64,000 nucleotides of DNA, from assembly GCF_054482595.1 (NCBI RefSeq), contig NZ_CM137008.1; one strand, 5' to 3'. This document shows, piece after piece, positions 26,121 through 53,126 of the stretch. The notes beneath the pieces are model-generated. The model saw only the letters and a program-made list of their open reading frames with translations, was not told where the DNA came from and did no database searches. The position numbers and the translations under genes are program-made. Position 1 is the first letter of the stretch. Each line of letters begins with the position of its first letter.

Positions 26121-28193
<2,073 letters not shown>

Positions 28194-28204
28194 CTATTAA
28201 TTGG

Positions 28205-28238
28205 CTGATCGGACTTGTTCGGCGTACAAGTGTACGCT
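28205..28238 (+). promoter_or_regulatory. fabB promoter operators: FadR box (GCTGATCGGACTTGTTC) adjoining FabR palindrome (GGCGTACAAGTGTACGCT)
   Basis: Both motifs read directly about 50–80 bp upstream of the fabB ATG. Confidence 0.6.
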
Positions 28239-28285
28239 ATTGTGCATTCGAAACTTACTCTATGTGCGACTTACAGAGGTATTGA

Positions 28286-29506
28286 ATGAAACGTGCAGTG
28301 ATTACTGGCCTGGGCATTGTTTCCAGCATCGGTAATAACCAGCAGGAAGTCCTGGCATCTCTGCGTGAAGGACGTTCAGGGATCACTTTCTCTCAGGAGC
28401 TGAAGGATTCCGGCATGCGTAGCCACGTCTGGGGCAACGTAAAACTGGATACCACTGGCCTCATTGACCGCAAAGTTGTGCGCTTTATGAGCGACGCATC
28501 CATTTATGCATTCCTTTCTATGGAGCAGGCAATCGCAGATGCGGGCCTTTCTCCGGAAGCTTACCAGAATAACCCGCGCGTTGGCCTGATTGCAGGTTCC
28601 GGCGGCGGCTCCCCGCGTTTCCAGGTGTTCGGCGCTGACGCAATGCGCGGTCCGCGCGGCCTGAAAGCGGTTGGCCCATATGTGGTCACCAAAGCGATGG
28701 CATCCGGCGTTTCTGCCTGTCTCGCCACGCCGTTTAAAATTCATGGCGTTAACTACTCCATCAGCTCCGCGTGTGCGACTTCCGCACACTGTATCGGTAA
28801 CGCAGTAGAGCAGATCCAACTGGGCAAACAGGACATCGTGTTTGCTGGCGGCGGCGAAGAGCTGTGCTGGGAAATGGCTTGCGAATTCGACGCAATGGGT
28901 GCGCTGTCTACTAAATACAACGACACCCCGGAAAAAGCCTCCCGTACTTACGATGCTCACCGTGACGGTTTCGTTATCGCTGGCGGCGGCGGTATGGTGG
29001 TGGTTGAAGAGCTGGAACACGCGCTGGCGCGTGGTGCTCATATCTATGCTGAAATCGTTGGCTACGGCGCAACGTCTGATGGCGCAGACATGGTTGCTCC
29101 GTCTGGCGAAGGCGCAGTACGCTGCATGAAGATGGCGATGCATGGCGTTGATACCCCAATCGATTACCTGAACTCCCACGGTACTTCGACTCCGGTTGGC
29201 GACGTGAAAGAGCTGGCAGCTATCCGTGAAGTGTTCGGCGATAAGAGCCCGGCGATTTCTGCAACCAAAGCCATGACCGGTCACTCTCTGGGCGCTGCTG
29301 GCGTACAGGAAGCTATCTACTCTCTGCTGATGCTGGAACACGGCTTTATCGCCCCGAGCATCAACATTGAAGAGCTGGACGAGCAGGCTGCGGGTCTGAA
29401 CATCGTGACCGAAACGACCGATCGCGAACTGACCACTGTTATGTCTAACAGTTTCGGCTTCGGCGGCACCAACGCCACGCTGGTAATGCGCAAGCTGAAA
29501 GATTAA
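28286..29506 (+). CDS. fabB: 3-oxoacyl-ACP synthase I (KAS I)
   Basis: 406-aa [21 protein letters not shown]...; active-site Cys in the SSACATS context. Confidence 0.95.
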
Positions 29507-51605: not shown

Positions 51606-53126
51606 TTAGTGGTAGCCCATCAACTGAGCGCCGATCACCACGACGCTGGACATAATAAACAGCAGTCCAAGCAGTGTCGCGCCCACCTTCAGCCAGTTAC
51701 GGAAGTCCACCCGGCAAACACCGAGCGTCGCCATTAACGAAGCTGAGGTTGGGTAAATGATGTGGCTGAAGCCATCACCAAACTGGAATGCCAGCACGGT
51801 AACCTGACGGTTAACACCGACCAGATCGCCAAGCGGTGCCAGTAACGGCATGGTTAACGCCGCCTGACCAGAACCGGATGTCACAAAGAAATTAAATACC
51901 GCCTGGAAGAGCAACATAAACCAGGCCGCGACAGCGTTGTCCAGACCGCTAATGGCATTGGCAATGCTGTTGAGGATGGTATTTAACACGCTGGCATCAC
52001 CCGCTTCACCATTACCGACCAGCAGCAAAATCCCTTTGGCGAAACCCACCAGCAGGGCAGGGGCGATCATCATTCGCGCCCCTTCGGTAAAGGATGAAGC
52101 CATGGTATTAACCGTCATGCCGTTAAGGCGGAAAACAACGCCGATGATGCCAATCACCAGACCCATGGTGAAGAACTGGCTGGCAATTTCTGGAATAAAC
52201 CAGGCATTAACGATCACGCCCCAAATCACCCAGACCATTACGGCGGTCAGGACAATCAATACCAGCCAGTCACCAAAGGTAAACGGACGTTGTTCAACAT
52301 CCGCCTGCTTTTCACGAAAGAAGCGGTCGGACTCATGCACGCGTGACAGAAGAGGATTCTTTTTCACTCGTGAGGCGTACACCATGGTAAAGATCAGGCC
52401 AATCAGAGTGGCGATAACCCACACCACGATGCGCAACCCGGAGCCAGAAAGCACCGGAACGCCGGCAATCCCCTGAGCAACAACCACACAAAACGGGTTC
52501 ATCCACGAACTGGCAAAACCGATTTGCGTGGCAATATAGGTCACCAGGACGGTGGTAATACTGTCATAGCCCAGCCGGACCATTAGCGGTGCGATGATAA
52601 TGGCAAAGGCGACGGCCTCTTCCCCCATACCAAATACCGCGCCGCCAAGTGAAAACAGAATAAACAGCGCAGGAATAAAGAGAATTTCATTCCCGCGGGT
52701 ATGGCGAATAAGCGCCAGGATACCGTTATCAATGGTTCCTGTACGCATCACAATGCCAAACGCGCCGCCAATCACCAGCATAAACATGATGATGCCAACG
52801 GCTGTCCCGTATTTCGATCCTGAGGTTAACCCTTCAAACGGGAAGTTCATCAGGCCCGGGCGTTCATCGCCCGTCGTGAACAGCTGTACGCGGTGATACT
52901 CAGGTTCGCCTGCTTCGTTAGTCAGAATGCGAAATGAGTGTGGATCTACGACTTTGCGTGTTTTTGTTTGACCATCAACCTGATACTGCACTTCCTGACT
53001 GTCAAACATCCCCACCGGAACTACCCAGGTGGCAAGGCTGGTTAAAATAGCAACAAAAAAGATAATCACCAACGTATCGGGCATTGCCCATCTTCTTGTT
53101 GGTTTGGATTCAGTGATTGCGGACAT
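51606..53126 (-). CDS. yfcC: Putative anaerobic C4-dicarboxylate-type membrane transporter
   Basis: Polytopic membrane ORF; start placed at the second in-frame Met (MSAITESK..., 506 aa); start not certain. Confidence 0.8.
   Translation of the reverse strand: MSAITESKPTRRWAMPDTLVIIFFVAILTSLATWVVPVGMFDSQEVQYQVDGQTKTRKVVDPHSFRILTNEAGEPEYHRVQLFTTGDERPGLMNFPFEGLTSGSKYGTAVGIIMFMLVIGGAFGIVMRTGTIDNGILALIRHTRGNEILFIPALFILFSLGGAVFGMGEEAVAFAIIIAPLMVRLGYDSITTVLVTYIATQIGFASSWMNPFCVVVAQGIAGVPVLSGSGLRIVVWVIATLIGLIFTMVYASRVKKNPLLSRVHESDRFFREKQADVEQRPFTFGDWLVLIVLTAVMVWVIWGVIVNAWFIPEIASQFFTMGLVIGIIGVVFRLNGMTVNTMASSFTEGARMMIAPALLVGFAKGILLLVGNGEAGDASVLNTILNSIANAISGLDNAVAAWFMLLFQAVFNFFVTSGSGQAALTMPLLAPLGDLVGVNRQVTVLAFQFGDGFSHIIYPTSASLMATLGVCRVDFRNWLKVGATLLGLLFIMSSVVVIGAQLMGYH

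What the first reader, a model, noticed from the sequence alone, without database searches (positions are those of the whole stretch)
28205..28238. Adjacent FadR box and FabR palindrome upstream of fabB
GCTGATCGGACTTGTTC (FadR-like) is immediately followed by the perfect palindrome GGCGTACAAGTGTACGCT (FabR-like). This matches the known dual control of unsaturated fatty acid synthesis genes and is a good internal check that the motif reading in this window is sound.
Basis: partly seen in the sequence, partly recalled or inferred. Interest (0 to 1): 0.25.

Follow-up and report, generated by a model that had tools for sequence, protein, structure and literature searches.

The report
Known FadR/FabR operators at fabB promoter
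This is the textbook control region of the E. coli fabB gene, where an activator site (FadR) and a repressor site (FabR) sit side by side on the promoter to tune unsaturated fatty acid synthesis; it is real, strongly conserved and already well described.

Summary
The window is E. coli chromosome. The finding lies in the 158-bp divergent mnmC/fabB intergenic region. Both strings are present and adjacent, with three corrections:
- The standard 17-bp FadR register is 28203-28219 (GGCTGATCGGACTTGTT).
- The 18-mer GGCGTACAAGTGTACGCT (28221-28238) is not a perfect palindrome. It has perfect 7-nt arms (GCGTACA/TGTACGC) around a non-symmetric AG centre, so 14 of 18 positions are self-complementary.

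The sequence equals the published E. coli fabB probe that FadR shifts in EMSA, in which this exact 18-mer is marked as the FabR palindrome.

A published genome-wide TSS map puts +1 at window 28250. That gives:
- FadR box at -47..-31, overlapping a weak -35 (TTGTTC)
- FabR box at -29..-12, filling the 17-bp spacer
- -10 TATTGT, whose first T is the last base of the FabR box

The operator stretch (28203-28240) is identical in 5425 of 5426 complete E. coli genomes. Each box is about 93% conserved across 80 Enterobacterales fabB loci, against about 60% for the flanks.

Nothing here is new: activation by FadR, relieved by acyl-CoA, and spacer occlusion by FabR, tuned by acyl-ACP. Interest is low.

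The parts
28203..28219 (+). FadR operator, 17-bp register GGCTGATCGGACTTGTT; -47..-31 relative to the fabB TSS, centre -39
   Evidence: It matches the consensus aaCTGGTCnGACC(T/A)Gtt (PMC9329746) at 10 of 12 core positions plus the terminal tt. The matrix scan peaks at 28203(+). It lies inside the published FadR EMSA probes. Positions 28205-28219 are nearly invariant in 75 of 80 Enterobacterales loci; 28203-28204 vary.
28215..28220 (+). -35 hexamer TTGTTC (3/6 to TTGACA) of the fabB promoter; overlaps the right end of the FadR box
   Evidence: Inferred from the published TSS and a 17-bp spacing to the -10. It is conserved in the orthologues. The consensus scan did not call this promoter because only 7 of 12 hexamer positions match.
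28221..28238 (.). FabR operator 18-mer GGCGTACAAGTGTACGCT; -29..-12; fills the -35/-10 spacer
   Evidence: Identical to the string marked as the predicted FabR palindrome in PMC4537474 Table 2. It fits the E. coli FabR motif AGCGTACACGTGTTCGCT quoted in PMC4273635 and the core ACAnnTGTnnnnT of PMC4804515. 79 of 80 orthologous loci keep it at 14/18 or better.
28222..28228 (.). Left arm GCGTACA of the FabR inverted repeat
   Evidence: (repeat I2): 7 nt, 100% complementary to 28231-28237, with 2 nt between the arms.
28231..28237 (.). Right arm TGTACGC of the FabR inverted repeat
   Evidence: repeat I2. The centre dinucleotide 28229-28230 (AG) varies among species: AG 43, AC 26, TC 6, GG 4.
28238..28243 (+). 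-10 hexamer TATTGT (-12..-7); its first T is the last base of the FabR 18-mer
   Evidence: Position follows from the TSS. Orthologues keep TAnnnT: TATTGT 25, TAAAGT 24, TAGAGT 15, TATCTT 11.
28250..28250 (+). fabB transcription start site (G), giving a 36-nt 5'UTR
   Evidence: Kim et al. 2012, PMC3415461, supplementary file 2. TSS at NC_000913.2 2439663(-), 5'UTR of 36 nt, upstream sequence ending ...GCTATTGTGCATTCG. Mapped to the window through the K-12 alignment.
28286..29506 (+). fabB coding sequence (beta-ketoacyl-ACP synthase I, 406 aa), the regulated gene
   Evidence: NF005935 equivalog, 804.9 bits, cut-off 630.
26121..28127 (-). mnmC, the divergent neighbour; its TSS maps to 28152(-), 98 bp from the fabB TSS
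   Evidence: NF002480 MnmC equivalog. mnmC TSS at 2439761(+). mnmC is the divergent neighbour in 77 of 80 loci.

Best explanation
The segment is the operator region of the sigma-70 promoter of E. coli fabB. Two transcription factors, both encoded outside this window, read the lipid state of the cell and set fabB transcription.

FadR (activator)
- FadR is a GntR-family dimer. It binds the 17-bp pseudo-palindrome at -47..-31, which overlaps the weak -35 hexamer TTGTTC.
- From there it helps RNA polymerase use a promoter whose hexamers match the consensus at only 7 of 12 positions.
- Long-chain acyl-CoA, made from exogenous fatty acids, releases FadR, and activation is lost.

FabR (repressor)
- FabR is a TetR-family dimer. 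It binds the 7+2+7 inverted repeat at -29..-12.
- This site occupies the whole 17-bp spacer and the first base of the -10, so a bound FabR should sterically exclude RNA polymerase.
- Repression is strengthened by unsaturated acyl-ACP or acyl-CoA and relieved by saturated species. This makes a negative feedback on the unsaturated/saturated ratio.

Shown here: the sequence, its identity to the published probes, its geometry relative to a published TSS, and purifying selection on exactly these bases.

Taken from the literature: binding and ligand effects.

Inferred: the steric-occlusion step and activation through contact at the -35.
For: Identity
- The locus is the E. coli mnmC/fabB intergenic region.
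- The sequence matches the published FadR EMSA probe with its marked FabR palindrome.

Geometry
- The published TSS maps to 28250. That places the FadR box over the -35 and the FabR box in the spacer.

Selection
- 28203-28240 is invariant in 5425 of 5426 E. coli genomes, while the flanks vary.
- Across 80 Enterobacterales loci, mean identity to the window is 0.93 for each box, against 0.60 upstream and 0.57 in the 5'UTR.
- The linker is 1 nt in 73 of the 75 loci with a recognisable FadR box.
- The variable positions are those expected to be tolerated: the two central bases of the palindrome, the mirror positions 28224 and 28235, and the two outer bases of the FadR box.

Paralogous design
- The K-12 fabA promoter has the same composite. 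CTGATCGGACTTGTTC is identical, the FabR box matches at 14/18, and GCTAT follows.
- The composite occurs at a median of two places per E. coli genome.

Function, from the literature
- FadR activates fabA and fabB and acts from upstream of the -35 (PMC9329746).
- FabR with C18:1-ACP represses fabB, and C16:0-ACP relieves it. FabB rises about 4-fold in a fabR deletion (PMC11525553).
- FabR binds the fabB promoter more strongly than the fabA promoter (PMC3549993). This fits the perfect arms in fabB against two arm mismatches in fabA.
- A FabR ChIP peak lies in the Salmonella fabB-mnmC intergenic region.
Against: Nothing contradicts it. The limits are these.
- No binding experiment can be done here.
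- The primary papers were not held (Campbell & Cronan 2001; Zhang et al. 2002; Zhu et al. 2009; Feng & Cronan 2011). Footprint boundaries are therefore taken from secondary sources and from probe tables.
- The simple consensus promoter scan does not call this promoter. That is expected for an activator-dependent promoter, but the -35 assignment rests on spacing and the TSS, not on a strong match.
- PMC4804515, citing Feng & Cronan 2011, notes that flanking sequence matters for FabR binding when no ligand is present. The 18-mer may therefore not be the whole determinant.
Confidence: 0.95

Rival explanations
1. The two motifs are chance look-alikes with no regulatory role.
For: Loose versions of both patterns are at chance level in the window. 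FadR-like with up to 3 mismatches: 17 found, 13.9 expected. FabR-like with up to 3 mismatches: 2 found, 2.5 expected. Bare 7+7 inverted repeats with a 2-nt spacer occur 5 times.
Against: - There is an exact 16-nt match to the FabR core and a 1-mismatch match to the FadR core, abutting each other at the right distance from a mapped TSS.
- The sequence is identical to published probes.
- It is invariant in 5425 E. coli genomes and about 93% conserved over Enterobacterales, against about 60% for the flanks.
Confidence: 0.005
2. The inverted repeat acts as an RNA or DNA hairpin (terminator, attenuator or mRNA stability element) rather than as a protein operator.
For: It is a G+C-rich 7-bp inverted repeat with a short loop.
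Against: - It lies upstream of both mapped TSSs, fabB +1 at 28250 and mnmC +1 at 28152 on the other strand. Neither mRNA contains it.
- No terminator-like site was found and there is no T run.
- There is no Rfam match at E <= 1.
- A 2-nt loop is sterically poor for a hairpin.
- Arm changes in orthologues are mostly one-sided (20 of 79 loci have one arm mismatch). That is tolerable for a dimeric protein site but not what a selected stem would show.
Confidence: 0.01
3. The conservation reflects only core promoter constraints (-35, spacer length, -10), not transcription-factor binding.
For: The boxes overlap the -35, the spacer and the -10 (plus the sequence).
Against: - Spacer sequence is normally free to drift. 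Here 14 of the 17 spacer bases are invariant or nearly so (at most one variant locus) across 79 loci, and they are dyad-symmetric.
- The conserved block extends 12 nt upstream of the -35 into CTGATCGGAC.
- The actual -10 hexamer interior is the least conserved part (0.76).
- EMSA and ChIP in the literature show protein binding.
Confidence: 0.01
4. The composite operator is shared: besides fabB, it also modulates the divergent mnmC promoter 98 bp away.
For: - mnmC is the divergent neighbour in 77 of 80 loci.
- The Salmonella ChIP study lists both fabB and STM2379 (mnmC) as possible targets of the same peak.
- The boxes lie at about -51 to -86 relative to the mnmC TSS.
Against: - No report of mnmC regulation by FadR or FabR was found in the papers read.
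- The synteny may simply be inherited.
- A repressor site at -70 to -86 is poorly placed for occlusion.
- This would add to the main explanation, not replace it.
Confidence: 0.05

Closest known systems
E. coli K-12 fabB promoter (FadR activator site plus FabR repressor site; Campbell & Cronan 2001, Zhang et al. 2002, Feng & Cronan 2011, as cited in PMC4537474, PMC4259882 and PMC9329746)
   Same: It is the same locus. 180 of 181 aligned bases are identical, and both operators, the -35, the -10, the TSS position and the 5'UTR are all identical.
   Different: One base differs: window 28201 is T where K-12 has A (-49, two bases outside the 17-mer). The exact 41-mer carrying T is found in 2312 of 5426 complete genomes, so it is a common allele.
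E. coli fabA promoter (paralogous FadR/FabR composite)
   Same: - Same order and the same one-base linker.
- CTGATCGGACTTGTTC is identical.
- The FabR box occupies the spacer and is followed by GCTAT.
- Same two regulators.
   Different: - The fabA palindrome is imperfect (GCGTACA / TGTTAGC, two arm mismatches), and its centre is CG, not AG. This agrees with the reported weaker FabR binding and repression at fabA.
- The fabA FadR box overlaps the stop codon of the upstream gene ycbZ.
FadR repressor sites of fad genes (fadL, fadI in this same window; fadBA, fadD)
   Same: Same 17-bp motif family and the same protein.
   Different: - The fad sites keep CTGGTC, while fabA and fabB have CTGATC.
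- The fad sites sit at or downstream of the promoter to block RNA polymerase. Here the site is upstream, overlapping the -35, and activates.
Shewanella / Vibrio fabB promoters ('fad regulon contraction', PMC4537474)
   Same: FabR control of the unsaturated fatty acid genes is retained.
   Different: - Those fabB promoters lack a FadR site. The window has the full enterobacterial composite.
- Similar FadR-box loss with FabR-box retention appears in Rosenbergiella (L045, L056) and Candidatus Schmidhempelia (L073).

Membership tests
FadR (GntR-family) operator | 17-bp pseudo-palindrome fitting aaCTGGTCnGACC(T/A)Gtt | tested here: met
   GGCTGATCGGACTTGTT (28203-28219) matches 10 of 12 core positions plus tt (consensus from PMC9329746). 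It ranks 7th of about 128,000 positions with a matrix built from fad sites only.
FadR (GntR-family) operator | For an activated gene: site upstream of or overlapping the -35 of the target promoter | tested here: met
   The site spans -47..-31 relative to the published TSS. The rule is stated in PMC9329746.
FadR (GntR-family) operator | Bound by FadR protein and released by long-chain acyl-CoA | not testable with these tools
   The literature reports EMSA with FadR on a probe identical over both boxes (PMC4259882; PMC4537474). This was not repeated here.
FadR (GntR-family) operator | Evolutionary conservation of the site at orthologous promoters | tested here: met
   28205-28219 is nearly invariant in the 75 of 80 Enterobacterales fabB loci that keep a recognisable box. 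71 of 80 score 15/17 or better.
FabR (TetR-family) operator | 18-bp dyad-symmetric site resembling AGCGTACACGTGTTCGCT, with core ACAnnTGTnnnnT | tested here: met
   GGCGTACAAGTGTACGCT has perfect 7-nt arms and contains ACAagTGTacgcT (core from PMC4804515). It matches the motif quoted in PMC4273635 at 14 of 18 positions and is identical to the palindrome marked in PMC4537474.
   14 of 18 positions are self-complementary. The centre AG and the outer G/T break the symmetry. This is not a defining feature of the family: the published fabA site is less symmetric still.
FabR (TetR-family) operator | Located immediately downstream of the FadR box, overlapping core promoter elements of fabA or fabB | tested here: met
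   A one-base linker, and the site spans -29..-12. The fabA layout is the same.
FabR (TetR-family) operator | Occupied by FabR in vivo or in vitro; fabB de-repressed in a fabR mutant | not testable with these tools
   From the literature: a Salmonella ChIP-chip peak in the fabB-STM2379 intergenic region with fabB up in the fabR deletion, and about 4-fold more FabB in an E. coli fabR deletion.
Sigma-70 promoter | -35 and -10 hexamers 16-18 bp apart, upstream of a mapped TSS | tested here: met
   TTGTTC, 17 bp, TATTGT, with +1 seven bases after the -10 (sequence). The T-A-n-n-n-T pattern of the -10 is conserved.
Sigma-70 promoter | At least 9 of 12 matches to the consensus hexamers | tested here: not met
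   7 of 12 match, and the scan found no site. This is consistent with dependence on an activator.

The most novel reading that the evidence does not exclude
The most novel reading the evidence leaves open is that this composite is not dedicated to fabB alone.
- It sits 98 bp from the TSS of mnmC, which is divergently adjacent in 77 of 80 loci.
- A further conserved block, GCAAATTT (28184-28191), lies between the two promoters.
- FadR and/or FabR might therefore also tune mnmC, a tRNA wobble-uridine modification enzyme. That would link membrane lipid state to translation.

A smaller variant concerns a few lineages (Rosenbergiella, Candidatus Schmidhempelia). They have dropped the FadR half of the composite and kept FabR. 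In Schmidhempelia this comes with a consensus TATAAT -10. This would extend 'fad regulon contraction' into or next to Enterobacterales.
Probability: 0.07. Interest if true: 0.35.

Novelty: already known. Interest (0 to 1): 0.07.

Why it matters
As a discovery it does not matter: this is one of the best-studied bacterial lipid-regulation promoters. Its value is as a positive control. The first-stage reader recognised two real operators from raw sequence and named the correct regulators and gene, so its motif reading in this window can be trusted to about one base of register. The footprint also gives a clean, quantified picture of which operator bases are under selection across Enterobacterales.

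Tried and rejected
Papers not held
- Campbell & Cronan 2001 (PMC99677), Feng & Cronan 2011 (DOI and PMC4072462), Zhu et al. 2009 (PMC2787350), McCue et al. 2001 (PMC30389) and Feng & Cronan 2009 (PMC2785586) could not be read.
- I used probe tables, reviews and a TSS supplement instead.
- Full-text searches for the operator strings found only PMC4259882.

Scans that found nothing
- The consensus promoter/terminator scan of 28050-28350 found nothing. I explain this by the weak hexamers.
- The Rfam scan of 28050-28350 at E <= 1 found nothing.

Ideas considered and dropped
- A second inverted repeat, ACTTGTTCG/CGTACAAGT (28213-28231), bridges the two boxes and might have been a functional element. 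It depends on the centre dinucleotide AG, which is AC, TC or GG in 36 of 79 orthologues, so it is incidental.
- The other FadR-like matrix hits (47634-, 44572+, 27641+, 19894-, 11633-) and the FabR-like site at 52876 with 2 mismatches are at chance frequency. Those I placed (52876, 47634, 27641) fall inside long ORFs, and none was pursued.
- I tried to assign the conserved block 28184-28191 to fabB or to mnmC, using loci that lack mnmC. Only 3 such loci exist, so the test is uninformative.

Full report
**Locus.** The window is Escherichia coli chromosome. A 301-nt query around the finding matches 5425 of 5426 complete E. coli genomes, under features annotated fabB and mnmC. The ORF at 28286-29506 (+) is FabB: NCBIfam NF005935, beta-ketoacyl-ACP synthase I, 804.9 bits against a cut-off of 630. 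The ORF ending at 28127 (-) is MnmC. The finding lies in the 158-bp divergent intergenic region between them. Against K-12 MG1655, 180 of 181 aligned bases are identical. The only difference is T (window 28201) for A.

**Checking the observation.**
- Both quoted strings are present and abut: GCTGATCGGACTTGTTC = 28204-28220 and GGCGTACAAGTGTACGCT = 28221-28238. The stated start, 28205, is one base off.
- The standard FadR operator is a 17-bp pseudo-palindrome, aaCTGGTCnGACC(T/A)Gtt (PMC9329746). In that register the site is GGCTGATCGGACTTGTT, 28203-28219, which is where my matrix scan peaks. One linker base (C28220) then separates it from the FabR box.
- The 18-mer is not a perfect palindrome. 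Only 14 of 18 positions are self-complementary. The symmetry is two perfect 7-nt arms, GCGTACA (28222-28228) and TGTACGC (28231-28237), around a non-symmetric centre AG.

**Chance.**
- Loose versions of either motif occur at chance frequency in the window.
- A bare 7+7 inverted repeat with a 2-nt gap occurs five times. Symmetry alone is therefore not the signal.
- The exact FabR core occurs once.
- The FadR site ranks 7th of about 128,000 positions with a matrix built only from published fad-gene sites. The higher ranks include the real fadL and fadI operators, which are also in this window.
- The two sites abut at a fixed distance from a mapped TSS.

**Match to curated and published sequence.**
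- The E. coli fabB EMSA probe printed in PMC4259882 and PMC4537474 is TCTATTAAATGGCTGATCGGACTTGTTCGGCGTACAAGTGTACGCTATTGTGCATTC. It equals the window except at 28201.
- FadR shifts this probe.
- The table in PMC4537474 marks exactly GGCGTACAAGTGTACGCT as the predicted FabR palindrome.
- PMC4273635 quotes the E. coli FabR motif as AGCGTACACGTGTTCGCT. PMC4804515 gives the core as ACAnnTGTnnnnT. The window site fits both.

**Promoter geometry.** The genome-wide TSS table of Kim et al. 2012 (PMC3415461, supplementary file 2) lists a fabB TSS with a 36-nt 5'UTR and upstream sequence ending ...GCTATTGTGCATTCG. This maps to window 28250.

| Element | Window coordinates | Position relative to +1 |
|---|---|---|
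| FadR box | 28203-28219 | -47..-31 |
| -35, TTGTTC | 28215-28220 | -35..-30 |
| FabR box | 28221-28238 | -29..-12 |
| -10, TATTGT | 28238-28243 | -12..-7 |

- The spacer is 17 bp.
- The FadR box overlaps the -35. The FabR box fills the whole spacer and supplies the first T of the -10.
- Only 7 of 12 hexamer positions match the consensus. That explains why the consensus scan is silent, and it fits an activator-dependent promoter.
- The mnmC TSS in the same table maps to 28152 on the minus strand, 98 bp away.

**Selection.**
- Within E. coli, the 38 nt from 28203 to 28240 match at 100% identity in 5425 genomes. At least one alignment was trimmed by two bases at the 5' end. Over the 301-nt region, 626 genomes fall below 99%.
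- Across 80 fabB loci from different Enterobacterales and neighbouring species, mean identity to the window is 0.93 for each box. It is 0.60 for the upstream flank and 0.57 for the 5'UTR.
- The linker is one base in 73 of the 75 loci with a recognisable FadR box.
- Variation falls where a dimeric protein site should tolerate it:
  - the two central bases of the palindrome (AG 43, AC 26, TC 6, GG 4)
  - the mirror positions 28224 (G/T) and 28235 (C/A)
  - the two outermost bases of the FadR box
- The -10 keeps T-A-n-n-n-T.

**Paralogue.** The K-12 fabA promoter has the same layout. CTGATCGGACTTGTTC is identical, then comes a one-base-different linker and a FabR box matching at 14 of 18, followed by GCTAT. 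A sensitive search finds the composite at a median of two places per E. coli genome. The fabA palindrome has two arm mismatches. This fits the reported weaker FabR binding at fabA than at fabB (PMC3549993).

**Mechanism (literature plus inference).**
- FadR activates fabA and fabB from a position just upstream of the -35. It loses DNA binding when long-chain acyl-CoA is present.
- FabR represses. [quoted passage not shown] FabB rises about 4-fold in a fabR deletion (PMC11525553).
- FabR occupies the fabB-mnmC intergenic region in Salmonella in vivo. The composite is 36/36 identical in the Salmonella locus I fetched (subsp. diarizonae, L010).
- FabR most likely works by sterically excluding RNA polymerase from the spacer and -10. 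This is my inference from the geometry.

**Rivals.**
- An RNA hairpin or terminator is excluded. The repeat lies upstream of both TSSs, has no T run and has no Rfam match.
- Conservation caused only by the core promoter is unlikely. The spacer is more conserved than the interior of the -10, and conservation extends 12 nt upstream of the -35.
- A shared role in mnmC control cannot be excluded, but nothing I read supports it.

**Verdict.** The feature is already known.

Noticed in passing
window 8522-8562 (- strand), upstream of ORF 7096-8442 (-): The two published FadR operators of fadL are present: AGCTGGTCCGACCTATA at 8546-8562 and CACTGGTCTGATTTCTA at 8522-8538. They are the top two matrix hits in the window. 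The ORF is FadL (NF007988, 829 bits) (probe sequences).
   Followed up: partly
window 9230-9246, 27 nt upstream of ORF 9273-10583 (+): A nearly palindromic FadR-like site, AAGTGGTCTGACCTGAT, scores on both strands. It lies just upstream of fadI (TIGR02446, 905.7 bits), which is followed by fadJ at 10583-12727. It is presumably the fadIJ operator. One 64-kb window thus holds three FadR-controlled promoters.
   Followed up: partly
window 28201: T here against A in K-12, at -49 of the fabB promoter and two bases outside the FadR 17-mer. The exact 41-mer carrying T is found in 2312 of 5426 complete E. coli genomes. E. albertii also shows T; the Citrobacter and Salmonella loci fetched show A. It is a common polymorphism of unknown effect.
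   Followed up: partly
window 28184-28191 (GCAAATTT) and 28158-28186: A second conserved block lies 12 nt upstream of the FadR box, with 0.8-0.9 identity over 80 loci. It overlaps a plausible mnmC promoter on the minus strand: -35 TTGCGC at 28186->28181, 17-nt spacer, -10 TAAGAT at 28163->28158, and the published TSS at 28152. It could instead, or also, be an UP-like element for fabB (-66..-59). The test using loci without mnmC was uninformative.
   Followed up: partly
window 28271-28279; L002 1973-1981 (- strand): The 9-mer CTTACAGAG sits just before the start codon of both fabB and K-12 fabA. It covers the Shine-Dalgarno region and is only moderately conserved among fabB orthologues. It may be chance (roughly 0.04 expected) or a relic of a shared origin.
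   Followed up: no
window 28213-28231: The inverted repeat ACTTGTTCG / CGTACAAGT (9 nt, 89% complementary) bridges the right half of the FadR box and the left half of the FabR box. It depends on the centre AG, which varies among species, so it is probably incidental.
   Followed up: yes
L045, L056 (Rosenbergiella), L073 (Candidatus Schmidhempelia bombi), L076 (Candidatus Gullanella endobia), L069 and L071 (Edwardsiella), L082 (Alkalimonas MAG); about 40-100 nt upstream of fabB, locus positions about 1390-1460: Lineage exceptions to the composite:
- Rosenbergiella and Schmidhempelia have lost the left part of the FadR box but keep the FabR palindrome. Schmidhempelia has a consensus TATAAT -10.
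- In the endosymbiont Gullanella the FabR box has decayed and part of the FadR box remains.
- Edwardsiella has a 2-nt linker instead of 1.
- Alkalimonas has only a FabR-like site.

Whether fadR or fabR is missing in these genomes was not checked.
   Followed up: no
L002 2029-2045 (K-12 fabA upstream region): The fabA FadR box AACTGATCGGACTTGTT contains the TGA stop codon of the upstream gene ycbZ (the CDS ends at L002 2040). The activator site therefore overlaps a coding sequence.
   Followed up: no
E. coli plasmid records, e.g. NZ_OZ547091.1 36884-36919: Four matches to the composite lie on plasmids. One is 88.9% identical, lies under a ycbZ annotation and sits on a 262-kb plasmid. This suggests a plasmid-borne copy of the ycbZ-fabA region. 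One of the 5426 genomes has no match at all.
   Followed up: no
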